Shown: one piece after another, positions 9,429 through 55,521 of the stretch
Position numbering within the stretch: position 1 is the stretch's first letter
How the letters are laid out: each line of letters begins with the position of its first letter
NCBI GenBank assembly: GCA_030390025.1
Contig: CM059443.1
Location: forward strand, 48,732,001-48,796,000
Direction of reading: 5' to 3'
DNA from: Squalus acanthias
Taxonomy: Eukaryota
DNA: 64,000 nucleotides
Program-made: the position numbers and the translations under genes
Notes under the pieces: model-generated
What the model was told of the DNA's origin: nothing
Database searches by the model: none
The model's input: only the letters and a program-made list of their open reading frames with translations

Positions 9429-9780
9429 AATTTGGTCATCTCGTTCCAGTTTGTAGCTCGTGTGAGCCACAGTACAAAACTACCGCTAAATTGTCACTTT
9501 CACTCAAACAGGCCATGAGGTGTGAGAAGTGAAATGTCCGAGCTCCCTCCTGAGTTTGGAGTTGAGGAGCATTGTTGGGAAAGTCCAGAGGGAACTTTAC
9601 GCTGCACCTAATCTGGAGTGCTCCAAATGATACTGTGTGGCCACAGTGGAAAAGTAACCCATTTGCAGAGTGGGCTCCCCTTACCTTCATTACATTAACA
9701 ATCTCCGAACCCTCCATCCCAAAACAAACCCGTGGTCAGTGTTGAACGTTGCCGGGGCCGACAGCTGTCACTCTGCTTAC

Positions 9781-9967
9781 CCTTTGACCATTGACTCTTC
9801 GATCAAACAGTACACATGCTCTGTAGAGTCAGACTTTGGGCCAGTGCTCTCCATTCCTTCACCAGGCCTTGGCTGGCTCGATGGCGTTGGAACTCTCGTC
9901 ACCGAGTACGCAACATGGTCGTTGTCATCGCTCTGATCCCTTCTGGGAACCACAGAGTACGGGAAAC
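9781..9967 (-). CDS. Receptor A cytoplasmic exon with three Tyr motifs
   Basis: tctgtctag / GTAAGC, 187 nt, phase 1 to 2; FPYSVV...VAYSVT...HVYCLI. Confidence 0.8.
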
Positions 9968-10061
9968 CTAGACAGAAGGACGAGTAGACGATGTGTGCTT
10001 TTAGTTTCAACTCTCAAAGGGACAGGCTCGGAAGAGCTGGGCAGTAATTCTAGTCACTTAC

Positions 10062-10096
10062 ATTCAGCCACCTGTGTCAGCTGCACATCACCAGCC
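10062..10096 (-). CDS. Receptor A 35-nt cytoplasmic exon
   Basis: actgtag / GTAAGT, phase 2 to 1, AGDVQLTQVAE. Confidence 0.7.
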
Positions 10097-10193
10097 CTAC
10101 AGTTAGTAAAGAAAAGCAACCTGTAAATGTTCCATTAAATGTGGAAAGCTATACAGAAAGTCTGCCCGAAAACTGAACGAATCCCATCCCTAC

Positions 10194-10215
10194 CTGGGTC
10201 CTGGTGCTGAGGATC
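10194..10215 (-). CDS. Receptor A 22-nt cytoplasmic microexon
   Basis: gtgaag / GTAGGG, phase 1 to 2, GSSAPGPR; needed to keep frame and conserved in copies B and C. Confidence 0.6.
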
Positions 10216-10325
10216 CTTCACAACACATGCCATAAGATTGGAAAGATAAATTTAAAAGTCTTTGTAAGGAGTCTGCAATTACAATTTTCTAGATTTAGAG
10301 CAAACATTTTAAAGCTCTTGCTTAC

Positions 10326-10433
10326 CTTTGGCAGCTTGTCGTTTCCTTCGGATTATGCAAAGTACCCCAACAATGCAAATGATCACAACCGCACACGCTA
10401 TGGTTACTTTCACAGATGTGGCAGTGTCTGGAC
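10326..10433 (-). CDS. Receptor A transmembrane exon (uncharged core)
   Basis: ctctgcag / GTAAGC, 108 nt, phase 1-1; GPDTATSVK-VTIACAVVIICIVGVLCII-RRKRQAAK (hydrophobic run plus basic stop-transfer). Confidence 0.85.
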
Positions 10434-10507
10434 CTGCAGAGGAGAAGCAACATTAAGTTCAGTCTGTGCAATCCCGTGTTATATGTACAGCTGATCACAC
10501 TGGTTAC

Positions 10508-10540
10508 CTGGGCTGAGGAACAGACATTTCCGGTTAGAAT
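10508..10540 (-). CDS. Receptor A 33-nt linker exon
   Basis: gttccag / GTAACC, phase 1-1, NSNRKCLFLSP. Confidence 0.7.
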
Positions 10541-10629
10541 CTGGAACAGTGCAATGGCGAAGAAAGGAAATCGAACCAACTTTTAATGGGTACAAACTGG
10601 ACAACTGATCTGGAATCTATCAACTTTAA

Positions 10630-13352
10630 TTTTTTTTATTCATTCATGGGATGTGGGCGTCATTGACGAGGCCAACATTTATTGCCCATGCCTAATTGCC
10701 CTTGAGAAGGTGGTGGTGAGCCGCCTTCTTGAACCGCTGCAGTCCGTGTGGTGAAGGTACTCCCGCAGTGCTGTTAGGGAAGGAGTCCCAGGATTTTGAG
10801 CTAGCGACGATGAAGGATCGGCAATATACTTCTAAGTCAGGATGGTGTGTGACTTGGGGGGCAACTTGGAGATGATGGTGTTCCCATGAGCCTGCTGCCC
10901 TGTCCTTCTAGGTGGTAGAGGTCACGGGTTTGGGAGGTGCTGCCGAAGAAGCTTTGGCGAGTTGCTGCAGTGCATCTTGTAGCTGGTACACACTGCAGCC
11001 ACGGTACGCCAGTGGTGGAGGGAGTGAATGTTTAAGATGTGGATGGGCTGCCAATCAAGCGGGCTGCTTTGTCCTGGATGGTGTCGAGTGTCTTCAGTGT
11101 TGCTGTAGCTGCACTCATCGAGGCAAGTGGAGAGTATTCCATCACACTCCTTACTTGTGCCTTGTAGATGGTGGAAAGGCTTTGGTGACTAAGGAGGTGA
11201 GACACTCGCTGCAGAATACCCAGCCTCTGACCTACTCTTGTTGCCACAGTATTTATGTGGCTGTTCCAGTTACGTTTCTGGTCAATAGTGACCCCCAGGA
11301 TGTTGATGGTGGGGGATTCGGCAATGGTAATGCCATTGAATGTTAAGGGGAGGTGGTTAGACTCTCTTATTGGAGATGGTCATTGCCTGGCACTTATGTG
11401 GCGCGAATGTTACTTGCCACTTATCAGCCCAAGCCTGAATGTTGTTCAGGTCTTGCTGCATGCAGACACGGACTGCTTCATTATCTGAGGAGTTGCGAAT
11501 GGAACTGAACACTGTGCAGTCATCAGCAAACATCCCCACTTCTGTCCTTATGATGGAGGGAAGGTCATTGATGAAGCAGCTGAAGATAGTTGGGCCTAGG
11601 AAACTGCCCTGAGGAACTTTTGCAGCAATGTCCTGGGGCTGAGATGATTGGCCTCCAACAACCAGAACCACCTTCCTTTGTGATAGGTATGACTCCAGCC
11701 ACTGGAGAGTTTACCCCCTGATTCCATTGACTTCAATTTTACTGAGGTTCCTTGATGCCACACTCAGTCAAATGCTGCCTTGATGTCAAGGGCAGTCACT
11801 CTAACCTCCCCTCTGGAATTCAGCTTTTGTCCATGTTTGGACCAAGGTTGTAATGAGGTTTGGAGCTAAGTGGTCCTCGCAGAACCCAAACTGAGCATCA
11901 GTGAGCAGGTTATTGGTGAGTAAGTGCCACTTAATAGTACTGTCGACAATACCTTCCATCACTTTGCTGATGATTGAGAGTAGACTGATGGGGCGGGATT
12001 TGACCGTTTCGGATTTATACTACTTTTTGAAGACTGGACATACCTGGGCAATTTTTCACTTTGTCGGGTAGATGCCAGTGTTGTAGATGTACTGGAACAG
12101 CTTGGCTAGAGGCACGGCTAGTTCTGGAGCACAAGCCTTCAGCACGACAGCCGGGATGTTGTCGGGGCTCATAGCCTTTGCTGTATCCAGTGCGCTCAAC
12201 CGTTTCTTGATATCACGTGGAGTGAATCAAATTGGCTGAAGACTGGCTTCTGTGATGGTGGGGACTGCAGGAGGAGGCCGAGATGAATCATCCACTCACC
12301 ACTTCTGGCTGAAGATGGTTGCAAACACTTCAGCCTTGTCTTTTGCACTCACGTGCTGGGCTCTGACATCATTGAGGATGGGGATGTGCATGGAGCCTCC
12401 TCCCGTTAGTTGTTTAATGGTCCACCACCATTCACGATGTGGCAGGACTGCAGAGCTTTGATCTGATCCCTTGATTGTGGGATCGCTTCACTCTGTCTAT
12501 AGCATGCTGCTTCTGCTGTTTAGCATGCATGTATTGTAGCTTCACCAGGTTGGCACCTCATTTTTTGGTATGTCTGCTGCTGTTCCTGGCATGCTCTTCT
12601 ACACTGCTCATTGAACCGGGGTTGGTCCCCTGGCTTGATGTTAATGGTAGAGTGAGGGATATGTCGGCCCATGAAGTTACAGATTGTGATGGAGTACAAT
12701 TCTGCTGCTGCTGATGGTCCACAGTACCTCATGGATGTCCAGTTTTGAGCTGCTAGATCTGTTCTGAATCTATCCCATTTAGCACGGTGGTAGTGCCACA
12801 CAACACGATGGAGGGTGTCCTCAGGATGAAGACAGGTCCTTGTCTCCACAAGGACTGTGCGGTGGTCACTCTTACCAATACTGTCATGGAGAGATACATC
12901 TGCGACAGGTAGATTGGTGAGGACGAGGTCAAGTATGTTTCTCCCTCGTGTTGGTTCTTTCACCACCCGCCGCTGGCAGCTATGTCCTTCAGGACTTGGC
13001 CAGCTTCGTCAGTAGCGGTGCTACCGAGCCACTCGGTGATGGATATTGAAGTCGCCCACCCAGAGTACATTCTGTGCCCTTGCTACCCTCAGTGCTTCTT
13101 CCAAGTGGTGTTCAATGTGGAGGAGTACTGATTCATCAGCTGAGGGAGGGTGGTCGGTGGTAATCAGCAGGAGGTTTCCTTGCCCATGTTTGACCTGATG
13201 CCATGAGACCTCTTGGGGTCAGGGAGTCAATGTTGAGGACTCCAAGGGCCACTCCCTCCAACTGTATACCACTGTGCTGCCACCTCTGGTGGGTCTGTCT
13301 TGCCTGAGGGACAGGACATACTTAGGGATGGTGATGGAGGAGCCTGGGACAT
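10630..13352 (-). mobile_element. Degenerate LINE of a second CR1/L2-related family; duplicated at ~50995-54010
   Basis: Broken endonuclease/RT ORFs (EPTRGRNILDLVLTN, PQGSxLGP, MFADD, IYKAQVRSVMEYS). Confidence 0.9.
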
Positions 13353-13434
13353 TTCGTGAAAGAATTATTTATATTATTTATATTGAATTATTTATATTAA
13401 ATGAGTCGCATTGTTTCTAGATTGTATCACTTAC

Positions 13435-13625
13435 TTTGAGTATTTGTACGAGTTAAGTTGCTGGTCACTGAGGAGATTCCAGATGTTGAGGTGGGGGTGT
13501 CTGAAGTCTCTGCACTCGCCTCTGTCACAGTAAGGGAGATGTTTGCTGCAATCTTCCAGACAGGTTTCCCTGAATCCTGACTGTGGACAGCACAGAGATA
13601 CCTCCCAGTGTCCACCACATCCGCT
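13435..13625 (-). pseudogene. 3' remnant of receptor A V-set (D2) exon; leader, D1 and the 5' part of D2 are missing
   Basis: ADVVDTGRYLCAVHSQDSGKPVWKIAANISLTVTEASAETSD...TQ with intact donor, fused to LINE sequence at ~13625. Confidence 0.85.
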
Positions 13626-15201
13626 AATGAATCAGTACTTTGCCTTGTTGAACACCACTTGGAAGAAGCACTGAGAGTAGCAAGGGCACAGAATGTACTC
13701 TCGGTGGGGGACTTCAATGTCCATCACCAAGAGTGACTCGGTAGCACCACTACTGACCGAGCTGGTCGAGTCCTGAAGGACATAACTGCCAGTCTGGGCC
13801 TGCAACAGGTGGTGAGAGAACCAACACGAGGGAAAAACTTACTTGACCTCGTCCTCACCAATCTACCTGTCGCAGATGCATCTGTCCATGACAGTATTGG
13901 TAGCAGTGACCACCACACAGTCATTGTGGAGATAAAGTCCCATCTTCACACTGAGGACACCCTCCATCGTGTTGCGTGGTACTACCACCGTGCTAAATGG
14001 GATAGATTCAGAACAGATCTAGCAGCTCAAAACTGGGCATCCATGAGGCGCTGTGGGGCAGCAGCAGAATTGTATTCGACCACAATCTGTAACCTCATGG
14101 CCCGGCATATCCCTCACTGTACCATTACCACCAAGCCAGGGGACCAACCCTGGTTCAAAAAGGAATGTAGAAGAGCATGCCAGGAGCAGCATCAGGCATA
14201 CCTAAAAATGAGGTGCCAACCTGGGGAAGCAGCAACACAGGACTACATACATGTTAAAAAACGGAAGCAGCATGTTATACACAGGGCTAAGCGATCCCAC
14301 AATCAACGGATCAGATCAAAGCTCTGCAGTCCTGCCACATCCAGTCGTGAATGGTGGTGGACAATTAAACTACTAACTGGAGGAGGAGGCTCCATGAATA
14401 TCCCCATCCTCAATGATGGTGGAGCCCAGCACGTGAGTGCAAAAGACAAGGCTGAAACATTTGCAGCCATCGTCAGCCAGAAGTGCCGAGTGGATGATCC
14501 ACATCGGCCTCCTGCTGAGGTCCCCACCATCACAGAAGCCAGTCTTCAGCCAATTCGATTCACTCCACGTGATATCAAGAAATGGCTGAGCGCAGTGGAT
14601 TCAGCAAAGGCTATGGGTCCTGAGAACATCCCGGCTATCGTGCTGAAGACTTGTCTTCCAGAACTAGCCACGCCTCTAGCCAAGCTGGTCCAGTACAGGT
14701 ACAACACTGGCATCTATCCGACAATGTGGTAAACTGCCCAGGTATGTCCTGTCCACAAAAAGCAGGAGAAATCCAATCTGGCCAATTACCGCCCCATCAG
14801 TCTACTCTCAATCATCAGCAAAGTGATGGAAGATGTCATCGACAGTGCTATCAAGCGGCACTTACTCACCTATAACCTGCTCACTGATGCCCAGTTTGGG
14901 TTCCGCCAAGACCACTCTGCTCCCGACCTCATTACAGCCTTGGTCCAAACATGAACAAAAGAGCTGAATTCCAGAGGTGAGGTGAGAGTGACTGCCCTTG
15001 ACATCAAGGCAGCATTTGACCGAGTGTGGCATGAAGGAGCCCTAGTAAAACTGAAGTCAATGGGAATCAGGGTGAAAACTCTCCACTGGCTGGAGTCATA
15101 CCTAGCACAAATGAAGATGGTTGTGGTGATTGAGGGTCAATCATCACAGTCCCAGGACATCGCTGCAGGAGTTCCTCAGGGCAGTGTCCTAGGCCCAACC
15201 A
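13626..15201 (+). mobile_element. Second-family LINE, 5' part (continues at 18011-18969)
   Basis: ORF ends ...[10 protein letters not shown] and resumes FSCFINDL at ~18012. Confidence 0.9.
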
Positions 15202-15805: not shown

Positions 15806-15835
15806 GGAGTGGAGCTGTGGTCATTGTTTGGTGTG

Positions 15836-22837: not shown

Positions 22838-23502
22838 ACCTGCCGTCCATGGTCCGTGCGGTCTCTGCCTAGATATCAAGAGAGGAGATCACGTTTGATG
22901 GGTTCACTTCCAGTGGGGGACAGATAATGAAAGCGGACTGTCTCGTTACATCAGATAAAGCTCCAGGAGCTTTAGAACAGACACAGTGTTGGCTGAGAGG
23001 ATTGTACTGAAAGATTGCAATTACTTACATTTTACTCACTGAATTTCACTTTTGCCTCCATCACTAAGAATACAGAAAATTAAACATGTGAAGCATCAGT
23101 AACATAAGATTCAAACAATAATAAACATCTGTAAATGGATTTGCTATTTTTAACCCCTGGATTTGAATCCGTCTCTCTACTCTTCAATTTTCGCTCTCAC
23201 CATCTCCCATCACTCTCCCTTTCCCTCACTCGCCCTCTATCTTTCCCTCCCTCCTTTCTCTCTCTCTATATGTCTGTCTCTCTCACTCTACCCCTCTCTC
23301 TATCCCTCCTCCTCTCTCTGGACTGTAAGGGTCATTTAAGAAATGATTTACATTCAACTTCCTGTGTCAGCCACACATTAGCCCCCTGCAGTTATTAAAG
23401 AAATGCAACTGGTAAATGTTTCATTGAATGAGAAAAACTAAACAGAAAGTCTGAATGAAAACTGAGTGAATCACATCCCTGCCACTACCGATGCTGAGGA
23501 TC
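22838..23502 (-). CDS. Receptor B cytoplasmic exons, tyrosine-free (microexon from 23502; 23352-23385; 23029-23063; remnant from 22868)
   Basis: Homologous to the A exons. Read-through gives GSSASVVAGM* (stop 23471-23473); spliced gives GSSAS(VV)-GANVWLTQEVE-LMEAKVKFSE*. The splice path actually used is uncertain. Confidence 0.5.
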
Positions 23503-23519
23503 CTTCATAAAAATAAATA

Positions 23520-23917
23520 ACGGGGGGAACTTACTAGATTTAATATAAGTTTTAAAAACGGTAATGGAGAAAATAATGGGACTTAAGTTTGACAAATCTC
23601 CAGGATCTGATGGCTTCCACCCCAGGGAATTAAAAGAAGCAGGTGAGGAAATTGCAAATACTCTAGTCATGATCTTCCAAAACTCTCTTGATTCAGGAAT
23701 TGTCCCCTTGGATTGGAATACTGCCAAATGTTACTCCATTATTTCAGCAGGGTGGGAGAGAAACCAGGAAATTATAGACCTATTCGTCCAACGTCTGTTG
23801 TGGGGAAGTTACTAGAATCTGTTACTGGGGACAGAGCAACTGAGCACTTGGACAAATATGAGTTGACCAGAGAGAGCCAGCATGGATTGGTAAAGGGTAT
23901 GTCAGGTCTAACTAACC
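23520..23917 (+). mobile_element. Old CR1, left part (resumes 29291-30460)
   Basis: DKSPGSDG...SQHGLVKGMSGLTNL; the RT continues (TNVVDKG) right after 29290. Confidence 0.85.
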
Positions 23918-24198
23918 TCCTCCCGTCTCCTCATTCAGAGAGGCGCGGTAGGCGGGAAGCATCACGAGTCTCACATTCCCACAAAGCGTGGAGCACAACG
24001 GAGGAAGGCGAGTTGGAAGCTGTTGGAGGAGCGGTGGCAAGCGGGAAGGGTAGCAGGAGGAGAAGCGCTCTTTCAGCGGCCGGGGATCGTTTCAGTCCCG
24101 GGGGATCACCGTCTGCAGGAGCAGCGGCAACAGGGGATATCGAAGCTTGTCTCATCGAGGCTGCCAAGGCGACACCTCGGAGGAGTAGCATCATTAAG
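23918..24198 (+). pseudogene. PLCL1: Retro-fragment of PLCL1 (PRIP-1) 5'UTR and coding exon 1
   Basis: Translates ...GDIEACLIEAAKATPRRSSIIK, matching my recollection of human PLCL1 SEAGLLEAARATPRRSSIIK. Start apparently mutated to ACG (23998). No GT donor follows. Confidence 0.75.
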
Positions 24199-24538
24199 CT
24201 TTTATTTCCCGAAATATTTTGTTAAATAACCCTATCGACTGACTACACTGCGTTTGAAGAGGACTTTTGATACACATCGGGAGACATTCAGGGAAACTTT
24301 GTCAAGACCTCACCAACACTATCAACATTTATTCTGGAAAATCTCTGAGGTTGGATTCCAGGATACCTGCAGCAGTAGAAAAACAACTGCAACAGCCATT
24401 ATCGTGACCTTCATTTCTCGATACAGGACCAGACTTTCCCGGCTGACAGGAGAGGATCCATTAAAGGAGAAAGAGGAGAGACTTGCATTTGGATAGCGCT
24501 TTTCACGAATACTGGACGTCCCAAAAGCGCTTTACAGA

Positions 24539-24943
24539 CGGGGCTTCTTTTAAACTGAGCCGGTTCCCGCTATTTTACTCTGCGGGGCTCCTTTTAAACT
24601 GAGCCGGTTCCCACTCTTTTACTCTGCGGGGCTTTTTTTTTAAACTGAGCCGGTTCCCGCTCTTTTACTCTGCGGGGCTTTTTTTTTAAACTGAGCCGGT
24701 TCCCGCTCTTTTACTCTGCGGGGCTTTTTTTTTAAACTGAGCCGGTTCCCGCTCTTTTACTCTGCGGGGCTTTTTTTTTAAACTGAGCCGGTTCCCGCTC
24801 TTTTACTCTGCGGGGCTTTTTTTTTAAACTGAGCCAGTTCCCGCTATTTTACTCTGCGGGGCTCCTTTTAAACTGAGCCGGTTCCCGCTCTTTTACTCTG
24901 CGGGGCTCCTTTTAAACTGCGCCGGTTCCCGCTCTTTTACTCT
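24539..24943. repeat. Tandem repeat, ~9 copies of ~45 bp (gcggggct(t)naaactgagccggttcccgctcttttactct)
   Basis: Direct reading; lies just upstream of CR1 ORF1. Confidence 0.95.
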
Positions 24944-25106
24944 GATAAATCTTATTTGTCCCACTCACAGACATAGTGCCTGTCACACCCACTGTACCAG
25001 ACACACCCACACACTTCGGTGACAACAACTGATCCGCCCCGGAATAGACAAAACAGTGGATTGGTTTAAATCTGTTCTAGTTTAATCCGCAAGTTAGCTA
25101 GAGGGG

Positions 25107-26033
25107 ATGGCAGGGGAGGCAGTGAAATGTTCCTCCTGCCGAATGTTTGAGGTGAGGGACGCCGTAGGTGTCCCTGCTGATTACACCTGTGGGAAGTGCA
25201 CCCATCTCCAGCTCCTCGAAAACCGTGTTAGGGAACTGGAGCTGGAGCTGGATGAACTTCGGATCATTCGGGAGGCAGAGGAGGTCATAGATAGAAGCTT
25301 CAGGGATGTAATTACTCCAAAGAATGAAGATAGATGGGTGACGGTGAGAGGGGCTAGGAGGAGGCGGTCGGTGCGGGGATCCTCTGTGGTCGTTCCCCTC
25401 AGTAACAGGTATAACGCTTTGGATACTGTCGAGGGGGACGACCTACCGGAGGTAAGCCGCGGTGACCGGATCTCCGGCGCTGGGTCCGTCCCTGTGGCTC
25501 AGAAGGGAAGGGGCGAGAGCAGGAGAGCAATAGTTATTGGGGACTCAATAGTCAGAGGGACAGATAGGAGGTTCTGTGGCAGCAAAAGAGACTCACGGAT
25601 GGTATGTTGCCTCCCGGGTGCCAGGGTCCGAGACGTCTCGGACCGTGTTTTCAGAATCCTCAAGGGGGAGGGGGAACAATCACAAGTCGTGGTACACGTC
25701 GGTACCAACGACATAGGTAGGAGAAGGGACGGGGATTTAAAACAGGAATTTAGGGAGCTAGGTTGGAAGCTGAGAGCCAGTATAAGCCATGTTGTAATTT
25801 CTGGTTTGTTGCCGGTGCCACGTGCCAGCGAGTTGAGGAACAGGGAGAGAGTGCAGATAAACACGTGGCTGCAGGGATGGTGTCGGGGGGAGGGTTTCAG
25901 TTATGTGGATAATTGGAGCGCATTCTGGGGAAGGTGGGACCTGTACAAACAGGACGGTTTGCACCTGAACCAGAGGGGCACCAATATCCTGGGAGGGAAA
26001 TTTGCTACGGCTCTTCGCGGGGGTTTAAACTAA
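25107..26033 (+). CDS. CR1 ORF1p (zinc finger/coiled coil plus SGNH esterase)
   Basis: CSSC...CGKC, LLENRVRELELELDEL, VIGDSIVR, VHVGTND, DGLHLN. Confidence 0.9.
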   Translation: MAGEAVKCSSCRMFEVRDAVGVPADYTCGKCTHLQLLENRVRELELELDELRIIREAEEVIDRSFRDVITPKNEDRWVTVRGARRRRSVRGSSVVVPLSNRYNALDTVEGDDLPEVSRGDRISGAGSVPVAQKGRGESRRAIVIGDSIVRGTDRRFCGSKRDSRMVCCLPGARVRDVSDRVFRILKGEGEQSQVVVHVGTNDIGRRRDGDLKQEFRELGWKLRASISHVVISGLLPVPRASELRNRERVQINTWLQGWCRGEGFSYVDNWSAFWGRWDLYKQDGLHLNQRGTNILGGKFATALRGGLN

Positions 26034-27958
26034 TTTGTCAGGGGGATGGGAAAAAGGGCTGTAGTCCAGGAGCCAGTGGTGAGTGTAGGGAGGTACTGAG
26101 GAGGGTATCAAGGTCGCAGGAATGTACCAGCAGACAGGAAGGTGGCTTGAAGTGTGTCTACTTTAATGCAAGGAGCATCCGGAATAAGGTAGGAGAACTT
26201 GGAGCGTGGATTGGTACTTGGGACTACGATGTGGTGGCCATTACGGAGACATGGTTAGAACAGGGACAGGAATGGTTGTTGGAAGTTCCGGGGTATAGAT
26301 GTTTCAGTAAGAGTAGGGAAGGTGGTAAGAAAGGTGGAGGAGTAGCATTGTTAATCAAGGATAGTTTAACAGCGGCAGAAAGGCAGTTCGAGGGGGATCT
26401 GCCGTCTGAGGTAATATGGGCTGAAGTTAGAAATAGGAAAGGAGCGGTCACGTTGTTAGGAGTTTTCTACAGGCCCCCAAATAGTAATAGAGATGTGGAG
26501 GAAGAAATTGCAAAGCAGATTATGAATAGGTGTGGAGGTCACAGAGTAGTTGTCATGGGTGACTTCAACTTTCCAAATATTGATTGGAACCTTTATAGGT
26601 CAAACAGTTCGGATGGGATAGTTTTTGCACAGTGTGTGCAGGAGGGTTTCCTGACACAATATGTGGATAGGCCGACAAGAGGTGGGGCCACATTGGATTT
26701 GGTACTGGGTAATGAACTGGGCCAAGTGTTTGATTTGTATGTGGGAGAGCACTTTGGAGATAGCGACCACAATTCGGTGACTTTCACTATTGTAATGGAG
26801 AGGGATAGGGCCATACGGCAGGGCAGGGTTTATAATTGGGTGAGGGGTAATTATGATGCGATTAGGCAAGAATTAGGGAGCATAAGATGGGAACAGAAAC
26901 TATCAGGGAAAGGCACAAACGAAAAGTGGAGCTTTTTCATGGAGCAATTACTGCGTGTCCTTGATAGGTATGTCCCTGTCAGGCAGGGAGGAAATGGCCG
27001 AGTGAGAGAACCATGGTTCACAAAAGAGGTTGAATGTCTAGTCAAGAGGAAAAAGGAAGCGTATGTAAGGATGAGAAAACAAGGTTCATTTGGGTCGATT
27101 GAGGGGTACAAGGTAGCAAGGAATGAGCTAAAAAAAGAGTTTAGGAGAGCTAGGAGGGGGCATGAGAAGTCCTTGGCGGGTCGGATCAAGAAAAACCCCA
27201 AGGCTTTTTACTCTTACGTGAGAAATAAAAGAATGACCAGGGTGAGGGTAGGGCCGGTCAAGGACAGTAGTGGGAACTTGTGCATGGAGTCAGAAGAGAT
27301 AGGAGAGGTGATGAATGAATACTTTTCGTCAGTGTTCACCGAGGAGAGGGGCCATGTTTTTGAGGATGAGAGTGTGATAAAGGTGGATAGGCTGGAGGAG
27401 GTAGATGTTCTGAGGGAAGATGTTTTAGCAATTTTGAAGAACCTGAGGGTCGATAAGTCCCCTGGGCCAGATGGGATATATCCTAGGATTCTTTGGGAGG
27501 CAAGGGAGGAGATTGCAGAGCCTTTGGCTTTGATCTTTGGGTCCTCACTGTCCACGGGGATGGTGCCAGAGGACTGGAGAGTGGCGAATGTTGTTCTTCT
27601 CTTCAAGAAAGGAAATAGGAATGACCCTGGTAATTATAGGCCGGTTAGTCTCACTTCGGTGGTTGGTAAGATAATGGAAAAGGTCCTGAGGGATAGGATT
27701 TATGACCATTTGGAAAGAGGCAACTTAATCAGGGATAGTCAACACGGATTCGTGAAGGGTAGGTCTTGCCTAACAAATTTGATTGAATTCTTTGAGGAGG
27801 TAACTAAGTGTGTAGATGAAGGTAGAGCAGTTGATGTCGTATACATGGATTTTAGTAAGGCGTTTGATAAGGTTCCCCATGGTCAGCTCATGAAGAAAGT
27901 AAGGAGTTGTGGGATAGAGGGAAATTTGGCCGATTGGATAAGTAACTGGCTATCTCAT

Positions 27959-28224
27959 CAGTTGTATCTTGCTATGTCTTTGATGTGGTACCTTCCTGGC
28001 TGACTTAATTAACTTTATCACACCTCGGCAGATAGTCAGGATGATTTAATTTATTGGTCTGCAATTGTAAAGTACACATGCTTTGTTTTCCATCTATATA
28101 TGCTTTGGAGATTCTGTATCTAATTTACTTCACCTGAGGAAGGAGCAAATCGATAGCTCCGAAAGCTTGTGATTTCAAATAAAACTGTTGGACTATAACC
28201 TGGTGTTGTGCGACCTCTCAATTT
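27959..28224 (+). mobile_element. ~265-bp hammerhead-bearing element inserted into CR1 ORF2
   Basis: 8-bp target duplication tatctcat (27951-27958 and 28225-28232); 3' part nearly identical to 15952-16035. Confidence 0.8.
28130..28172 (+). ncRNA. Minimal type I hammerhead ribozyme
   Basis: TCAC-CTGAGGA-a-GGAGC(aaatcgata)GCTCC-GAAAGCTT-GTGA; perfect 5-bp stem II. Confidence 0.8.
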
Positions 28225-29290
28225 TATCTCATAGAAGGCAGAGGGTGGTGGTGGATGGAAAATTTTCGGACTGGAGACCAGTTACCAGCGGTGTGCCACA
28301 GGGGTCGGTGCTGGGTCCTCTGCTGTTTGTGATTTTTAATCAATGACTTGGAGGAGGGGACTGAAGGGTGGATCAGTAAATTTGCTGATGACACCAAGAT
28401 TGGTGGAGTAGTGGATGAGGTGGAGGGCTGTTGTAAGCTGCAAAGAGACATTGATAGGATGCAGAGCTGGGCCGAAAAATGGCAGATGGAATTTAACCCT
28501 GATAAGTGCGAGGTGATTCATTTTGGTAGGGCAAATTTGAATAAGGATTACAGGGTCAACGGCAGGGTTCTGAGGAACGTGGAGGAACTGAGGGATCTGG
28601 GGGTTCATATCCACAGATCTCTGAAAGTTGCCACTCAAGTGGATAGAGCAGTAAAGAAGGCCTATAGTGTGTTAGCGTTTATTAACAAGGGGTTTGAGTT
28701 TAAGAACCGTGAGGTTATGCTACAACTGTACAGGACCTTGGTGAGACCATATTTGGAATATTGTGTGCAGTTCTGGTCACCTCACTATAGGAAGGACGTG
28801 GAAGCATTGGAAAGAGTGCAAAGGAGATTTACCAGGATGCTGCCTGGTTTGGGGGGGGAGGTCTTATGAGGAAAGATTGAGGGAGTTAGGGCTTTTCTCT
28901 TTAGAGCGGAGGAGGATGAGAGGCGACTTAATAGAGGTTTATAAGATGATGAGGGGGATAGATAGAGTGGATGTTCAGAGACTATTTCCTCGGGTGGAGG
29001 TAGCTGTTACAAGGGGGCATAACTATAAGGTGCATGGGGGGAGATATAGAAGGGATGTCCGAGGTAGATTCTTTACTCAGAGAGTGGTTGGGGTGTGGAA
29101 TGGACTGCCTGCTGTGATAGTGGAGTCGGACACTTTAGGAACTTTCAAGCGGTTATTGAATAAGCACATGGAGCACACCAGAATGATAGGGAGTGGGATA
29201 GCTTGATCTTGGTCTCGGACAATGCTCGGCACAACATCGAGGGCTGAAGGGCCTGTACTGTGCTGTACTGTTCTATGTTCTATGTTCTAT

Positions 29291-30460
29291 CACTAATGTG
29301 GTAGATAAGGGAGTGTACATGGATTTTAGATGGACTTCCAGAAGGCATTCAATAATGTTCCACACAAGACACTGTTAGCAAAAATGAAAGCACATGGCTA
29401 TTGACAAGACTAGGGAATTGGTTAGGAGGTTGGAAGCTGAGAGTAGGGATAATGGGTAATATACTCCAATTGGCAGGATGTGACTACTAGTGTCTCCCAG
29501 AGATCTGAACTGGGGCCTCAGATTTTCACTATATTTATAAAAAAAGACTTAGATAAAGGAATAGAGCGCCAAATATCCAAGGTTGCTGACAACACGGAGT
29601 TAGGTGCCACAGTAAGTAGTGTTGTCAAGGGACGTTGACAGATTAAGTGAGTTGGCAAAACTGGCAGATGGGGTTCAGTGTAGGGAAGTGTGAGAGGATC
29701 CACTTTGGACCGAAGAAAGATAGGTCAGAATATTTTCTAAATGGTGAGAAGATAGGAACTGTGGAGGAGCCGAGAGATTTCGGGGTCCAAGTACAGAAAT
29801 CACTAAAAAGCTAAAAACAGGGACAAAAAATAATTAAAAAGGCGAATAGAAAGTTAGCTTTATCTCAAGTTGGCTGGAATACAAAAGAGTAGATGTTATG
29901 CGACAGTTGTATAAAGCTTAGGTGAGACCACATCTGGAGTGCTGTTTTGAGTTCTGGGCACTGCACCTCAGGAAGGACATACTGGCCTTAGAAGGGGTGA
30001 TACTGGGGCTAAAAGGGTTAAATTACGAGGACAGGTTGCAGAGACTAGGCTTGTATTCCCTCGAGTATAGAAGATTAAGGGGTGATCTAATTGAGGTGTT
30101 TAAGATGATATAAGGATTTGATAGGGTGGATAGAGAGAAAGTATTTCCTCTGGTGGAGGAGTCTAAAACAAGGCGGCATAACCTTAAAATTAGAGCCAGG
30201 CACTTTAGGGGTGATGTCAGGAAGCACTTCTTCACACAAAGGGTGGTGGAAATCTGGAACTTGCTCCCCCCAAAAAGCTGTTGAGGCTGAGAGTCAATTG
30301 AAAATTTCAGAACTGAGATTGGTAGATGTTTATCAGTTAAGGGTATGAAGGCATATGCAACCAAGGCGGGTAAATGGAGTTAGGTCACAGATCAGCAATG
30401 ATCAAATTGAATGGCGGAACAGGCTCGAGGGGCTGAATGGCCTCCTTCTGTTCCTATGTC
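29291..30460 (+). mobile_element. Old CR1, right part
   Basis: Degenerate RT C-terminus (RPHLEC, RGDLIEVFK) and 3' hairpin. Confidence 0.85.
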
Positions 30461-30579
30461 GCTGTGGTCACAGTAAATGTGATAAGATCAGAACTATGAA
30501 TTTAAAAATCATTGTAATAAGTCTGTACTTAAATATAATTTTCCGGATTTAGATCAAACATTTTAAAGCTCTTGCTTAC

Positions 30580-30696
30580 CCTTGGCAGCTTGCCGTTTCC
30601 TTCGGATTATGCAAAGTGCCCCATCAATGCAAACTAGCACAACCAAGTACAGAACCAAAACACACATACGTATGTCACTGCAGCTGGTGTAAGGAC
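30580..30696 (-). CDS. Receptor B transmembrane exon (charged: Arg and Asp)
   Basis: ctctgcag / GTAAGC, 117 nt, phase 1-1; GPYTSCSDI-R-MCVLVLYLVVLVCI-D-GALCII-RRKRQAAK. Confidence 0.85.
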
Positions 30697-30940: not shown

Positions 30941-31402
30941 TTTGAGTATTTGTACAAGTTATGCTGCTGGTCACTGAGGAGATTCCAGATGTTGAGGTGG
31001 GGGTGTCTGAAGTCTCTGCACTCGCCTCTGTCACAGTAAGGGAGATGTTTGCTGCAATCTTCCAGACAGGTTTCCCTGAATCCTGACCGTGGACAGCACA
31101 GAGATACCTCCCAGTGTCCACCACATCCGCTGAGTGAATAGTAAGGTTGTGAGACTGGGGTCTAGCAGTAGGATTGTCTGAGCTTTGGGCAGAGATTCTT
31201 TGTGACGACCTTCTATCCACACAGCAGCGTGTGTTAATTTTTGCCTCCTTTTCCTCAATGTGAACAGAGTGCAGACACTTGGAAACGTTTCCAGATCTGA
31301 TCCAAAACAGAGTGAAGGGGAGCTTTTTTGTATTCTCAAACTGGCAGGGTAAAGTCACATTCACTCCCTCTGAGGAGATTTCTTCAGTAGAAAATATTTC
31401 AT
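30941..31402 (-). CDS. Receptor B D2 exon: V-set Ig domain plus Ser/Thr stalk
   Basis: 462 nt, phase 1-1; VTLPC, LFWIR, LTIHS, DTGRYLC V-frame motifs; extra cysteines KC and RCC. Confidence 0.92.
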
Positions 31403-31869: not shown

Positions 31870-32268
31870 CACTCTGGATTATCACAAAGAACAAGTCGTG
31901 GTTTTCACATCCCTCTCCTGACAGTGTGAGCCAGGACGGACACTTCGATGATCCTCCGTCTGTGGAATCCTGAGCCGAGCAGGTAAATACCATCGAGTTA
32001 AACGTCTCCACATCGAATGTCAGAGACTGAGACTCCATTTGTTCTTCGTTTAATTTGCATTTACTAGACTTTAGTTTGCTGGGCCTTTTTCTCAACTTAG
32101 GACTGATGTTTTCACCAAATTTCCTTTCCTTCTTACATTTTATTTTGTCCATTTCTGCTCCGAGATCAGTGGAGCTGCACAAGGTTACTTCATCCCCAGC
32201 ACCAGTGGGCATGTTGCACTGCAGAGTGGTGACATCTCCTGGTCCTCGGGAGAAGAGATAAGTGGATC
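31870..32268 (-). CDS. Receptor B D1 exon: divergent Cys-rich Ig-like domain
   Basis: ttccctgcag / GTACGT, 399 nt, phase 1-1, open; PGDVTTLQC...SLTFDV...VFTCSA...LFFVII. Lacks the canonical C-strand Trp. Confidence 0.85.
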
Positions 32269-40714: not shown

Positions 40715-40769
40715 CTGTAGCATGTTGGAACAGAAGGAAAAGACCCACAAACAAAGCACCGAGCGCCAT
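40715..40769 (-). CDS. Receptor B signal-peptide exon
   Basis: MALGALFVGLFLLFQHAT-G with a phase-1 GTAAGG donor compatible with D1 at 32268. Confidence 0.85.
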
Positions 40770-46021: not shown

Positions 46022-46323
46022 CTATGGGTTTAAACAAGTTATCCGTTGCCTTTCTCCTGTTACTCGATTATGCTCAGGTTCTTCCATTTTAGCATAAATA
46101 GGATTTTCTTCCATTTTTAACGGGCCAGGTCGTGGATCATCTTCCTCCAGCTGGGACTGTGTCACCGCGTCTACCGGGCAGCCTATCAAAGAATAAATCT
46201 GCTCATTGGACAAAGCAACGGGATCCTCCTTACTGTCCTCTTTGGGCTGTGATTGGCCGTCTGGTTTGAGTTCAGTAGCTGAAGAGGTTTCAACCTGCCG
46301 TCCATGGTCCGTGTGGTCTCTGC
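46022..46323 (-). CDS. Receptor C last coding exon (QIYSLI, NPIYAKM; C-terminus extended relative to A)
   Basis: Homolog of 5599-5849; a 1-nt indel gives ...MEEPEHNRVTGERQRITCLNP*. Confidence 0.75.
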
Positions 46324-46483
46324 CTAGATATTAAGAGAGGAGATCACGTTTGATGGGTTCACTTCCAGTGGGGGACAGATATTGAAAGTGGACTGTCTCG
46401 TTACTTGAGATAAAGGTCCAGGAGCTTTAGAACAGACACAGTGTTGACTGGGAGGATTATACTGAAAGATTGCAACGACTTAC

Positions 46484-46518
46484 ATTTTACTCCCTGGATT
46501 TCAGTTTTGCCTCCATCA
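46484..46518 (-). CDS. Receptor C 35-nt cytoplasmic exon
   Basis: Homolog of 6010-6044, splice sites intact. Confidence 0.75.
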
Positions 46519-49500
46519 CTAGGAAAACAGAAATTAAAACATGTGAATAATGAGTAACATAAGATTCAAACAATATTAAATCGTTGTAAGTGGAGACTAG
46601 GTGAGGTCATTTTCTCCCCAGAGCCTGGATTTGAGTCCAGCCCAGACTGAAATTCTCTCATTCATTTTCTCTCTCTCTGTCTATCTCCCTCTGACTCTCT
46701 GATTGTCTCTCCGACTCTCTTTCTCTCTGTCTCTCTCTCTCGCTGTCTCTCTCTGCCTGTCTCCCTGTCTCTCTGTCTGTCTATCTTGCTGTCTCTCTCC
46801 ATTCTCTCTGTCTCTATGTCTGCCTCTCTCCNNNNNNNNNNNNNNNNNNNNNNNNNNNNNNNNNNNNNNNNNNNNNNNNNNNNNNNNNNNNNNNNNNNNN
46901 NNNNNNNNNNNNNNNNNNNNNNNNNNNNNNNNNNNNNNNNNNNNNNNNNNNNNNNNNNNNNNNNNNNNNNNNNNTGTCTGTCTCTCACTGTCTCCCTCGC
47001 TGTCTCTCTCCATTCACTCTGTCTCAGTCTCTTTGTGTCTGTCATTCCCTCCCTGTCTCTATGTCTGTCTCACTATGTCNNNNNNNNNNNNNNNNNNNNN
47101 NNNNNNNNNNNNNNNNNNNNNNNNNNNNNNNNNNNNNNNNNNNNNNNNNNNNNNNNNNNNNNNNNNNNNNNNNNNNNNNNNNNNNNNNNNNNNNNNNNNN
47201 NNNNNNNNNNNNNNNNNNNNCTCTCTTTCTCTGTGTTGCTCTGTCTCTCTCTCTGTCTCTCTCTCCCTATCTCTATCGCTCTTTGTCTCTCTCTCTCTCT
47301 CACTTTGTCTCTCTCACTGTCTTTGCTGTGTGAGCAGTCCTCTCTGCAATGAGTTTTCACAGTCCCAATCCAGTTCCTTGCCTAAAACTGCGCATCATTC
47401 AGTAAAATATTTGGACTAAATTGATCATTATGGTCAGATAAGCCAAAATATTTTCCTGAGAAATTTATAAAAAAACTTCACACGGGCACAGTGAAAGGAG
47501 CTATTCTGATGTTGGGATAAAGGAGCACTAGCAGGTCAGAGGGCAGAGTGATTTACACGGCCTCCAGCCATTCTATACCTGACTTCGAACTGTTCGGTTG
47601 TGAGATTGGCTGCAAAACCTGGAAATGTTTTATGCTGGGTGGTGGAATAGATTAGTACGGCCCTTTAATATTTTAGGATCTGCCAAGTCCAAATTACTAG
47701 GAATAAAAGTCCTCTTTCTATATCTCTCTGGTCTCTATCTCTGTCTGTCTCTGTCGCACTCTCTGTCTGTCTCTGTCTCTTTCTCTCTAAGGGTCCTTGA
47801 TGAAATGAGGATTGAGAGCAGTTTAGGATTCAGCAAAGGAGGACAAAGGGATTAATTAAGAGGGGGGAAATAGAGTATGAGAGTAAGCTTGCAGGGAACA
47901 TAAAAACTGACTGTAAAAGCTTCTATAGATATGTGAAGAGAAAAAGATTGGTGAAGTCAAGTGTAGGTCCCTTGCAGTCAGAATCAGGGGAATTTATAAT
48001 GGGGAACAAAGAAATGGCAGACCAATTAAATACATACTTTGGTTCTGTCTTCACAAAGGAGGACACAAATAACCTCCCAGAGATGTCAGGGAACATAGGG
48101 TCTAATGAGAGGGAGGAACTGAAAGAAATCAGTATTTGTACGGAACTGGTGTTAGGGAAATTGATGGGATTGAAGGCCGATAAATCCCCAGGGCCTGATA
48201 ATCTACATCCTAGGGTACTTAAGGAAGTGGTCCTAGAAATAGTAGATGAATTACTGGTCATCTTCCAAAATTCTATAGACTCTGGAACAGTTCCCATGGA
48301 TTGAAGGGTAGCTAACGTTACCCCACTATTCAAAAAAGGTGGTAGAGAGAAAACGGGGAATTATAGACCGGTAAGCCTGACATCGGTAGTGGGGAAAATG
48401 CTAGAGTCCATTATAAAAGATGTAATAGCAGAGCACTTGGAAAACAGTGACAGGATCGGTCAAAGTCAACATGGATTTACAAAAGGTAAATCATGCTTGA
48501 CTAATCTACTGGAATTTTTTGAGGATGTAACTGGTAAAATAGATAAGGGAGAACCAGTGGATGTGGTGTATTTGGACTTTCAGAAGGCTTTCAATAAGGT
48601 CCCGCATAAGAGATTAGCGTGTAAAGTTAAGGCACATGGGATTGGGGGCAGGGTACTGACTTGGATAGAGAACTGGTTGGCAGACAGGAAGCAAAGAGTT
48701 GGAATGAACGGGTCTTTTTCCGAGTGGCAGGCAGTGACTAGTGGGGTACCACAGGGATCGGTCCTAGGACCCCAGCTATTCACAATATATATATTAATGA
48801 TCTAGACGAGGGAACTAGATGTAATATCTCCAAGTTTGCAGACGACACAAAGCTGGGTGGGCGTGTGTGCTGTGAGGAGGATGCCGAGAAACTCCAGTAT
48901 GATTTGGATAGGTTGGGTGATTTGGCAGATGCATGGCAAATGCAGTACAATGTGGATAAATGCGAGGTTATCCACTTTGGTGGCAAAAACAGGAAGGCAG
49001 ATTATTATCTGAACGGCAATAGATTGGGAGAAGGGGAAGTGCAACGAGACCTGGGTGTCCTTGTGCACCAGTCGCTGAAGGTAAGCATGCAGGTGCAGCA
49101 GGCGATTAAGAAGGTAAATGGTATGTTGTCCTTCGCAGCGAGAGGGTTCGAGTACAGGAACAAGGATGTCTTGCTGCAGTTGTACAGAGCCTTGGTGAGA
49201 CCACATCTTGAGTATTGTGTGCAGTTTTGATCGTCTTATCTGAGGAAGGATGTTCTTGCCATGGAGGGAGTGCAGCGAAGATTCACCAGACTGATACCTG
49301 GGATGGCAGGAATGACGTATGAGGAGAGATTGGGTCGATTGGGCTTGTACTCGCTGGAGTTTAGAAGAATGAGAGGGGATCTCATTGAAACTTATTAAAT
49401 TCTAACAGGACTAGACAGACTAGGTGCAGGAAGGATGTTCCCGATGGCCGGGGAGTCCAGAACCAGGGGTCATAGTCTAAGGATAAGGGGTAAGCCATTT

Positions 49501-50127
49501 AGGACAGAGATGAGGAGGAATTTCTTCATGCAGAGAGTGGTGAACCTGTGGAATTCTCTACCACAGAAGGCAGTTGAGGCCAACTCATTAAATATATTCA
49601 CGAAGGAGTTAGATATATTTCTTAAGGCTAAAGGGATTAAGGGATATGGGGAGAAGGCAGGGACAGGGTACTGAATTTGGATGATCAGCCATGATCTCAA
49701 TGAATGGCGGAGCAGGCTCGAGGGGCCGAATGGCCTACTCCTGCTCCTATCTTCTATGATTCTATGATTCTATGAATTTGGTCATCTCGTTCCAGTTTGT
49801 AGCTCGTGTGAGCCACAGTACAAAACTACCCCTAAATTGTCACTTTCACTCAAACAGGCCATGAGGTGTGAGAAGTGAAATGTCCGAGCTCCCTCCTGAG
49901 TTTGGAGTTGAGGAGCATTGTTGGGACAGTCCAGAGGGAGCTTTATGCTGCACCTAATCTGGAGTGCTCCAAATGATACTGTGTGGCCACAGTGGAAAAG
50001 TAACCCACTTGCAGAGTGGGCTCCCCTCACCTTCATTACATTAACAATCTCCGAACCCTCCATCCCAAAACAAACCCATGGCCAGTGTTGAACGTTGCCA
50101 GGGGCCGACAGCTGTCACTCTGCTTAC

Positions 50128-50562
50128 CCTTTGACCATTGACTCTTCGATCAAACAGTACACATGCTCTGTAGAGTCAGACTTTGGGCCAGTGCTCTCCA
50201 TTCCTTCACCAGGCCTTGGCTGGCTCGATGGCGTTGGAACTCTCGTCACCGAGTACGCAACATGCTCGTTGTCATCACTCTGATCCCTTCTGGGAACCAC
50301 AGAGTACGGGAAACCTAGACAGAAGGACGGGTAGACGAGGTGTGCTTTTAGTTTCAACTCTCAAAGGGACAGGCTCGGAAGAGCTGGGCAGTAATTCTAG
50401 TCACTTACATTCAGCCACCTGTGTCAGCTGCACATCACCAGCCCTACAGTTAGTAAAGAAAAGCAACCTGTAAATGTTCCATTAAATGAGGAAAACTATA
50501 CAGAAAGTCTGCCCGAAAACTGAACGAATCCCATCCCTACCTGGATCCTGGTGCTGAGGATC
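50128..50562 (-). CDS. Receptor C cytoplasmic exons (50541-50562, 50409-50443, 50128-50314)
   Basis: Same lengths (22, 35, 187 nt), phases and splice sites as in A; FPYSVV, VAYSVT and HVYCLI retained. Confidence 0.78.
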
Positions 50563-50672
50563 CTTCACAACACATGCCATAAGATTGGAAAGATAAATTT
50601 AAAAGTCTTTGTAAGGAGTCTGCACTTACAATTTTCTAGATTTAGATCAAACATTTTAAAGCTCTTGCTTAC

Positions 50673-50798
50673 CTTTGGCAGATAGTCGTTTCCTTCGGAT
50701 TATGCAAAGTGCCCCAACAATGCAAAGTGCCCCAACAATGCAAATGATCACAACCGCACACGCTATGGATACTTTCACAGGTGTGGCAGTGTAAGGAC
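50673..50798 (-). CDS. Receptor C transmembrane exon (uncharged core, 18-nt internal duplication)
   Basis: GPYTATPVK-VSIACAVVIICIVGALCIVGALCII-RRKRLSAK, 126 nt, phase 1-1. Confidence 0.85.
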
Positions 50799-50872
50799 CT
50801 GCAGAGGAGAAGCAACATTAAGTTCAGTCTGTGCAATCCCGTGTTATATGTACAGCTGATCACACTGGTTAC

Positions 50873-50904
50873 CTGGCTGAGGAACAGACATTTCCGAGTA
50901 GAAT
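50873..50904 (-). pseudogene. Frameshifted (32-nt) copy of the linker exon
   Basis: CTCAGCCAG versus CTCAGCCCAG in the three 33-nt copies. Confidence 0.7.
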
Positions 50905-54163: not shown

Positions 54164-54184
54164 ATTTACCACTGCTCATTACAG

Positions 54185-55510: not shown

Positions 55511-55521
55511 ACACTGGTTAC

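What the first reader, a model, noticed from the sequence alone, without database searches (positions are those of the whole stretch)
30580..30696. Copy B transmembrane segment carries two adaptor-pairing-type charged residues
Seen: SDI-R-MCVLVLYLVVLVCI-D-GALCII versus K-VTIACAVVIICI-V-GVLCII in A. The Asp is a single GTT>GAT change, and the N-terminal half of the exon differs wholesale. Established: Arg at the outer TM edge (LILRA, GPVI, FcalphaRI) and Asp in the inner half (FcgammaRIII and FcepsilonRI alpha, VDTGL) both mediate FcRgamma/CD3zeta association. Inference: B is the activating, adaptor-coupled member. Caveat: A and C also have a Lys at the outer TM boundary.
Basis: partly seen in the sequence, partly recalled or inferred. 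Interest (0 to 1): 0.8.

Follow-up and report, generated by a model that had tools for sequence, protein, structure and literature searches.

The report
Shark paired receptor, likely activating member
This exon is the membrane anchor of the short-tailed, probably activating member of an unnamed pair of shark immunoglobulin-type receptors; it keeps the same polar residues in several shark species while its outer domains are copied from its long-tailed neighbour.

Summary
Observation confirmed: exon 30696-30580 (minus strand) encodes Arg (codon at 30670) and Asp (GAT at 30625; GTT in A and C). The Asp is not private. Of 25 named shark homologues with a transmembrane segment, 7 (seven species) are B-type. 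With B, 8 of 8 carry Arg-15, Tyr-8, stalk Cys-19 and a 16-39-residue tail; 0 of 20 Val-type rows have Arg-15 or Tyr-8. B has lost its tyrosine-motif exons. Ig domains group by species, transmembrane exons by type: the paired-receptor gene-conversion signature. Corrections: the acidic charge is not conserved (5 Asp, 1 Asn, 2 His); the FxxDT and strict NxxR motifs are not met; the Arg lies at the helix edge like A's Lys; A/C tails have no strict ITIM; A is 5'-truncated, so C is the fuller partner; a 2014 survey found no FcRγ in sharks, whereas CD3ζ is present. Best reading (0.6): B signals through a ζ/γ-type adaptor, mainly via Arg and Tyr, with Asp secondary. No binding was tested. A new variant of a known kind.

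The parts
30580..30696 (-). Gene B transmembrane exon (phase 1/1): stalk Cys-19, Arg-15, Tyr-8, Asp 0, basic cluster
   Evidence: conservation
30668..30670 (-). Arg-15 codon (CGT); Arg in 8 of 8 B-type rows, 0 of 20 Val-type rows
30647..30649 (-). Tyr-8 codon (TAC); Tyr in 8 of 8 B-type rows, Cys in all 20 Val-type rows
30623..30625 (-). Asp codon (GAT; GTT in A and C); 5 Asp, 1 Asn, 2 His among B-type rows
40715..40769 (-). Gene B signal-peptide exon (coding part)
31870..32268 (-). Gene B exon for the N-terminal Ig-like domain D1 (no Pfam hit; beta-sandwich in the model of a homologue)
30941..31402 (-). Gene B exon for the V-set domain and Ser/Thr stalk
23503..30468 (.). About 7 kb of LINE-derived sequence in the intron after the B TM exon, absent from A and C (endonuclease + reverse transcriptase ORF at 25913-28000)
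23352..23502 (-). Gene B remnants of two small cytoplasmic exons (23502-23489 and 23385-23352); use uncertain
23029..23063 (-). Gene B cytoplasmic exon; spliced straight to the TM exon it is read in another frame than in A/C and ends an 18-residue tail, as in database models P0008, P0009, P0012
22729..22868 (-). Gene B truncated last exon; about 2 kb holding the two distal Tyr motifs is deleted after about 22840
46022..57030 (-). Gene C, long-tailed partner: D1 57030-56626, V 56174-55692, possible stalk exon 54190-54092, TM 50798-50673, 50562-50541, 50443-50409, Tyr exon 50314-50128, 46518-46484, last exon from 46323; signal exon not found in the window
5599..13637 (-). Copy A, long-tailed but 5'-truncated: 3' half of V (13637-13435), TM 10433-10326, Tyr exon 9967-9781, last exon from 5849; no signal or D1 exon between B and A
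253..307 (-). Signal exon of the next gene in the array (99% identical to B's; the gene runs out of the window)

Best explanation
B is the short-tailed member of a shark-wide pair of two-Ig-domain receptors. It arose once from the tyrosine-tailed gene, lost the tyrosine exons and acquired a polar helix face (Arg-15, Tyr-8, Asp 0). Gene conversion keeps its ligand-binding domains nearly identical to the partner's but stops at the TM exon. All of this is shown at sequence level. Inferred, not shown: B binds the same ligand as its partner and signals through a ζ/γ-family ITAM dimer. The Arg, three residues after a helix-capping Ser/Thr as in NxxR, and the Tyr one to two turns below would engage the adaptor's Asp pair. 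The inner Asp/Asn/His would be a secondary hydrogen-bonding contact. CD3ζ or a ζ-like paralogue is at least as likely a partner as FcRγ.
For: 8 of 8 polar-type rows have Arg-15, Tyr-8 and tails of 16-39 aa (0 Tyr in 7 rows, 1 Tyr in 1). 0 of 20 Val-type rows have Arg-15 or Tyr-8, and 19 of 20 have tails of 123-201 aa with 4-8 Tyr. Arg is invariant in a stretch (-21..-12) with only 48% mean pairwise identity, while basic residues of Val-type rows wander from -13 to -20 or are missing. TM tree: B clade 100/100, and 99/100 with the three diagnostic columns removed. V and D1 trees reject a B clade (p-AU 1e-42 and 1e-50). Within 6 species pairs, V identity A-vs-B is 92-97% against 18-46% for the TM. 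Arg, Tyr and Asp fall within an 80-degree arc of an ideal helix. In the model of homologue P0008 the helix starts at residue 320, after Ser319, with Arg at 322. Known parallels: CD89 binds γγ through an Arg near the top of its TM; a TCRβ Tyr points into the Arg/ζζ polar network; CD64 has Asn where CD16A has Asp (PMC13107469, passages). Homogenisation limited to ligand-binding domains is described for paired receptors (PMC3210942, abstract). cd247 marks shark T cells (PMC11372145, PMC10529500, passages).
Against: The 8 B-type rows are one lineage, not 8 independent events. FxxD/NT is absent (0 of 8) and so is NxxR (0 of 8). The Arg is 19-22 residues from the cytoplasmic basic cluster, whereas KIR2DL4's Arg is at TM position 4 (PMC8102735, passage), so it may sit among the lipid headgroups. 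A boundary Arg also occurs in long-tailed relatives (P0019; unnamed P0051). The acid changed at least twice, and two polar-only changes have probability about 0.25 under random single-base substitution. In the two carpet-shark rows the His is only 4 residues from the tail. A strict ITIM is found in 0 of 2 window tails and 6 of 18 database Val-type rows. FcRγ was not found in sharks in a 2014 survey, and all 16 fcer1g rows of a marker table were bony fish (file cut when stored). All homologues are predicted gene models; expression of B is not shown.
Confidence: 0.6

Rival explanations
1. B is a non-signalling decoy or modulator. The stalk Cys and the polar TM face drive B-B dimers or B-C heterodimers, and B competes for ligand or dilutes the partner's tyrosine-tail signal, which may be docking or costimulatory rather than inhibitory.
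For: Stalk Cys-19 is invariant in 8 of 8 B-type rows. Polarity rather than charge is kept at position 0. Intramembrane Asp/Asn/His commonly drives helix self-association (recalled). Partner tails carry NPIY (16 of 18 database rows, both window copies) more consistently than strict ITIMs (6 of 18).
Against: A decoy needs no invariant Arg, and two Arg residues facing each other favour an acidic third partner (inference). The TM exon is shielded from conversion right up to the acceptor (97.5% then 59.5%). No dimer motif was found: Y(sm)xxxT in 0 of 8.
Confidence: 0.2
2. B is activating, but through DAP10/DAP12 or another partner; or the Asp pairs with a basic residue in an unknown companion chain, so that B is one subunit of a larger complex.
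For: The canonical ζ/γ motifs are not met. NKG2D uses an Arg with DAP10 (PMC13107469). CD300C signals through an acidic TM residue, and E191V abolishes signalling while association remains (PMC12447643, passage).
Against: DAP12 partners use a centrally placed Lys and B has none. A Ser/Thr at +3/+4 of the polar residue occurs in only 3 of 8 rows and not in B.
Confidence: 0.13
3. B is a decaying duplicate; the residues are neutral leftovers and the Arg is only a membrane-boundary residue like A's Lys.
For: B has a 7-kb LINE block in an intron and eroded tail exons. B's D1 has 7 Cys against 9 in C. D1+V codons differing between B and C are 45 nonsynonymous to 9 synonymous (p=0.10 against an assumed neutral fraction of 0.75). 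No B-type model was recovered for 6 of 13 species.
Against: B has an open 354-aa model with canonical splice sites. B-type TMs with the same invariant residues occur in seven other species from both main shark lineages (lineage names recalled). The same 18-residue tail recurs in 3 database models.
Confidence: 0.07

Closest known systems
NxxR-type FcRγ-coupled receptors (LILRA, PIR-A, NKp46, GPVI, OSCAR, FcαRI/CD89, Xenopus XFL TM1)
   Same: Arg near the N-terminus of the TM, three residues after a helix-capping polar residue; short tail without tyrosine motifs; paired with tyrosine-tailed neighbours (PMC2413239, PMC6557307, passages).
   Different: S/TxxR, not NxxR; 21 residues lie below the Arg in B; added inner Asp and Tyr; two V-like domains instead of C2; the TM derives from its own paralogue (shared C-x-x-G core), so any likeness is convergent.
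FcγRIIIA/CD16A, FcεRIα, FcγRI/CD64 (FxxD/NT)
   Same: Asp or Asn in the inner half of the TM; an Asp/Asn exchange occurs naturally in both.
   Different: No Phe at -3 and no Thr at +1 in any B-type row; CD16A has no basic TM residue; the ectodomain is not FcR-like in the searches run.
CD300A/CD300C pair
   Same: V-type ectodomain homogenised by gene conversion, Ser/Thr-rich stalk, short-tailed member with an acidic TM residue (PMC12447643, passages).
   Different: Two Ig domains; Arg in addition; no CD300 chain among the listed PDB sequence hits.
MDIR of skate and zebrafish; NITR and NILT of teleosts
   Same: Multigene activating/inhibitory IgSF families of fishes; MDIR is the cartilaginous-fish precedent I found (PMC3031540, passages).
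   Different: MDIRs resemble CD300/TREM/pIgR. This family shows only generic V-set similarity, and none of the 28 database proteins bears such a name. MDIR sequences were not compared directly.
CD200R / CD200RL
   Same: Two-Ig paired receptors whose long-tailed member uses NPxY rather than ITIMs (recalled); partner tails here carry NPIY.
   Different: Domain order and the TM Lys/DAP12 coupling of CD200RL (recalled) are not shared; CD200R chains rank 44-45 (Z 12.5-12.6) among many V domains with a top Z of 14.6.

Membership tests
Paired IgSF receptors | Linked genes with near-identical ectodomains | tested here: met
   B vs C: D1 exon 91%, V exon 94% DNA identity; 92-97% V identity in 6 species pairs
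Paired IgSF receptors | Homogenisation confined to ligand-binding domains | tested here: met
   V and D1 trees group by species (B clade rejected), TM tree groups by type
Paired IgSF receptors | One member with short tail and charged or polar TM residue | tested here: met
   8 of 8 B-type rows; 0 Tyr in 10 of 10 possible B tails
Paired IgSF receptors | Other member with canonical ITIM/ITSM | tested here: inconclusive
   Strict ITIM in 0 of 2 window tails and 6 of 18 database rows; YxxI/L/V in 17 of 18; NPIY in 16 of 18; no ITAM
Paired IgSF receptors | Opposite signalling and shared ligand | not testable with these tools
   Needs cell assays
NxxR-type FcRγ-coupled TM | NxxR motif at the TM N-terminus | tested here: not met
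   0 of 8; S/TxxR in 8 of 8
NxxR-type FcRγ-coupled TM | Conserved Arg near the top of the TM | tested here: met
   8 of 8 at -15; its depth in the bilayer is uncertain
FcγRIII/FcεRIα/FcγRI-type TM | (M/L)Fxx(D/N)TxL motif | tested here: not met
   Phe -3 in 0 of 8, Thr +1 in 0 of 8; motif
ζ/γ-coupled receptors (either type) | Physical association with ζζ or γγ | not testable with these tools
   No shark adaptor sequence was available from the session's searches
DAP12-coupled receptors | Central TM Lys | tested here: not met
   No Lys or Arg between -14 and the cytoplasmic cluster in B
MDIR / CD300 / TREM / pIgR family | V domain closest to CD300/TREM/pIgR | tested here: inconclusive
   PDB sequence hits are generic (TCRα, ROBO, titin, VISTA); fold hits generic, pIgR-containing complexes among them at 12-14% identity; MDIR not compared

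The most novel reading that the evidence does not exclude
An undescribed shark receptor pair in which the activating member independently built a composite adaptor-binding helix. It would combine an outer Arg contact (CD89/LILRA mode) and an inner Asp contact (CD16/FcεRI mode), two modes treated as separate TM classes in the papers I read, and use it on CD3ζ in a lineage reported to lack FcRγ. It would show both assembly modes working on one helix, and germline-encoded receptors coupling to ζ before FcRγ existed.
Probability: 0.2. Interest if true: 0.8.

Novelty: new variant of a known kind. Interest (0 to 1): 0.55.

Why it matters
Few germline-encoded activating/inhibitory receptor pairs are described in cartilaginous fish; MDIR is the one I found mentioned. 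These genes are labelled 'uncharacterized' or with generic names in the databases. The pair has been kept across sharks with continual ectodomain conversion, which suggests a fast-evolving or pathogen-mimicked ligand (inference). Its TM exon is a compact natural experiment: Arg, Tyr and Asp mutants plus the natural Asn and His variants can test which adaptor shark innate receptors use and whether two known assembly modes can share one helix. Paired receptors as such are common, so the surprise is moderate.

Tried and rejected
Sequencing error or private mutation: rejected. Frameshift origin of the divergent 5' half: rejected, as the A/B length difference is 9 nt (108 vs 117) and all TM exons are phase 1/1. 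FcγRIII/FcεRIα motif and strict NxxR: tested, not met. Family assignment failed: Pfam gave only V-set and general Ig families; PDB sequence searches were generic; a TM-only search gave one chance hit, E 0.51; Atlas look-alikes were mixed V-set clusters, CD226-, CD83-, PD-1- and CD200R-like among them; fold searches were generic. The first structure model was poor (pLDDT 48); the deeper alignment gave 80; D1 was not folded or searched alone. B-type TMs outside the named sharks: none among 24 TM-bearing proteins of the 32 best unnamed hits examined (of 81 unnamed hits), but 50% clustering can hide short-tailed paralogues and their taxa are unknown. Positive selection on the ectodomain: not significant. 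An elephant-shark supplement search for adaptor names gave 0 hits (uninformative). tRNA and Rfam scans: 0 hits. Literature searches for a prior description listed no paper on this family; the library lacks most subscription papers, the gene has no name to search, and the original MDIR paper was not read. The collections metagenome contigs and viral contigs stayed unchecked; genome contigs is prokaryotic and was not used.

Full report
OBSERVATION. The interval 30696-30580 on the minus strand is one 117-nt exon with canonical splice sites, phase 1 at both ends, and it translates as reported. Numbering from the Asp as 0, it has Cys-19 (codon at 30682), Arg-15 (30670), Tyr-8 (30649) and Asp 0 (GAT, 30625); A and C have GTT at position 0 and Lys at -13. 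Identity is 97.5% to C over the last 80 intron bases, 59.5% to C over the 5' half of the exon and 87.9% to A over its 3' part.

LOCUS. The window holds a head-to-tail array on the minus strand with a repeat unit of about 40.4 kb (1-13.5 kb matches 40.5-54.2 kb at 96-98%). Gene B is complete: signal exon 40769-40715, D1 32268-31870, V 31402-30941 and TM, giving an open 354-aa model. It lacks the 187-nt tyrosine exon of A and C and the distal part of the last exon; BLAST finds both only in A and C. All 10 tails I could build for B (8 exon combinations, 2 read-throughs) have no Tyr. C has D1, V, TM and a 201-aa tail with 5 Tyr; its signal exon was not found in the window. A has the long tail but no signal exon, no D1 and only the 3' half of V, so it is a truncated copy or an assembly error, and C is the better comparison. 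A further signal exon lies at 307-253.

HOMOLOGUES. Three searches returned 28 proteins, all from sharks (13 species) and labelled uncharacterized or with generic names. 25 have a TM anchor; P0005, P0014 and P0020 have none and were left out of the counts. With the 3 window copies there are 28 rows. Eight have a polar residue at 0 (5 Asp, 1 Asn, 2 His); all eight have Arg-15, Tyr-8 and tails of 16-39 aa, one of them with a single Tyr. Twenty have Val; none has Arg-15 or Tyr-8, and 19 have tails of 123-201 aa with 4-8 Tyr (P0017 ends after 10 aa). Several Val rows are isoforms or near-copies. The seven database B-types come from seven species, each of which also has a Val-type; six species gave no B-type. 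These are predicted models, not proof of expression. Invariant B columns are -19, -15, -11, -10, -8, -2 and +1.

TREES. V domains (20 rows; 3 partial ones left out) and D1 domains (18 rows) group by species, and a B clade is rejected (p-AU 1e-42 and 1e-50). TM segments (23 rows, 36 columns) split by type, 100/100, or 99/100 without the three diagnostic columns. In 6 species pairs the A-vs-B identity is 92-97% in V and 18-46% in the TM. This is the pattern described as merohomogenization of paired receptors (PMC3210942, abstract and outline only). It also means that the eight B rows are one origin. The window copies fall nearest Pristiophorus and Heptranchias. A wider profile search found 87 clusters, 60 at E up to 1e-10, unnamed. 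Of the 32 best unnamed ones, 24 have a TM; none has the Arg-plus-Asp arrangement, most have Tyr-bearing tails, one has an inner Asn and one a boundary Arg. The long-tailed neutral form therefore looks ancestral (inference; taxa unknown).

ECTODOMAIN. Pfam finds V-set in the second domain and nothing in D1. A model of homologue P0008 (pLDDT 80) shows two beta-rich domains, a disordered stalk and a helix from residue 320. Sequence, Atlas and fold searches give only generic V-type matches. No family and no ligand can be assigned.

MECHANISM. Shown: loss of tyrosine motifs, a conserved polar face (Arg -60, Tyr -80, Asp 0 degrees on an ideal helix), and shielding of the TM exon from conversion. Inferred: coupling to an ITAM adaptor. 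A review (PMC13107469; passages, outline and the second part of section 2.2) gives two ζ/γ modes: an Arg near the top of the TM (CD89, in QNLIR), and FxxDT or FxxNT in the lower half (CD16A, FcεRIα, CD64), where CD16A has no basic residue. PMC2413239 (passages) treats NxxR and (M/L)Fxx(D/N)TxL as separate TM classes. B matches neither exactly: NxxR 0 of 8, S/TxxR 8 of 8, Phe-3 0 of 8, Thr+1 0 of 8. Ser and Thr cap helices as Asn does (recalled), and the model starts the helix right after that Ser, so S/TxxR is a plausible equivalent. The Arg is the better-supported determinant because it is invariant in a variable stretch, while the basic residues of Val-type rows are not fixed. The Asp is less secure: its charge is lost in 3 of 8 rows, and two polar-only changes would arise by chance about a quarter of the time. 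CD300C is a precedent for an acidic residue needed for signalling (PMC12447643, passages).

WHICH ADAPTOR. A 2014 survey found no FcRγ in sharks (PMC4016189, passages); newer genomes may overturn this and I could not check them. cd247/Cd3z marks T cells in bamboo shark and nurse shark (PMC11372145, PMC10529500, passages). In the first paper's marker tables all 16 fcer1g rows belong to bony fish and one cd247 row to the shark; the file was cut when stored, and marker lists are not gene inventories. CD3 chains are reported in elephant shark and catshark (PMC6795676, passage). I found no statement on shark DAP12 (search listings; supplement search of PMC3964593). NxxR-type receptors often reach the surface without FcRγ (PMC6557307, passage), so rescue assays alone cannot refute coupling.

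THE PARTNER. A and C tails have five Tyr but no strict ITIM, ITSM or ITAM. Among 18 database Val rows, 6 have a strict ITIM, 17 a YxxI/L/V, 16 NPIY and none an ITAM. Inhibition is likely but inferred; PTB-type docking is an alternative (recalled from CD200R).

RIVALS. Decoy or dimer former (0.2), other adaptor or partner chain (0.13), decaying duplicate (0.07).

NOVELTY AND VERDICT. Searches listed no paper on this family. MDIR is the cartilaginous-fish precedent (PMC3031540, passages) and was not compared by sequence; the library is incomplete and unseen supplements may list these genes. PMC10768021 was seen in passages and not used. The feature is real and conserved. It works like a ζ/γ-coupled activating receptor but is not a member of the NxxR or FxxDT TM classes by their defining motifs. 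New variant of a known kind; interest 0.55.

Noticed in passing
window 22843-22838 versus 5824-5819 and about 3785-3780: The deletion that removed B's distal Tyr motifs is bounded by a 6-nt microhomology, and the lost 2 kb begins GT and ends AG, like a precisely lost cryptic intron. The Heterodontus B model P0007 ends in a similar junction-type tail.
   Followed up: partly
window 55691-55511: The intron after C's V exon is 97.6% identical to B's but breaks off about 60 nt before the TM acceptor, while C's own pre-TM intron is 86% identical: probably a recent conversion tract or internal duplication.
   Followed up: partly
window 50798-50673 and 46323-46022: C has an 18-nt duplication lengthening its TM by 6 residues and a 1-nt deletion near the stop that extends its tail by 17 residues relative to A.
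   Followed up: no
window 32268-31870: B's D1 has 7 Cys against 9 in C and a more basic loop; D1 and V differ from C mostly by nonsynonymous codons (45 to 9; p=0.10).
   Followed up: partly
window 31402-30941 versus 56174-55692: The V-exon acceptor is shifted by 6 nt between B and C, and B has a 15-nt in-frame deletion near the start of V.
   Followed up: no
window 23063-23029, 46518-46484, 6044-6010: One 35-nt exon is read in different frames in long-tailed and short-tailed genes; in B-type models it supplies the stop.
   Followed up: yes
window 13637-19048: LINE fragments fill the place of A's signal exon, D1 and first half of V; a real deletion and an assembly error cannot be told apart here.
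   Followed up: partly
window 58992-61997, 25913-28000, 7460-8926: Long LINE ORFs with reverse transcriptase, two with endonuclease; the first is 1002 codons stop to stop.
   Followed up: partly
window 38098-39616, 6180-6990, 46654-47330, 24539-24944: Tandem repeats: a large minisatellite in B's first intron, GA-rich tracts in the tail introns (the C copy holds the two N gaps), and a 92-bp repeat inside the LINE block.
   Followed up: no
P0003 (Heptranchias): The B-type model has a duplicated D1-V ectodomain (four Ig domains); could be real or a fused gene model.
   Followed up: no
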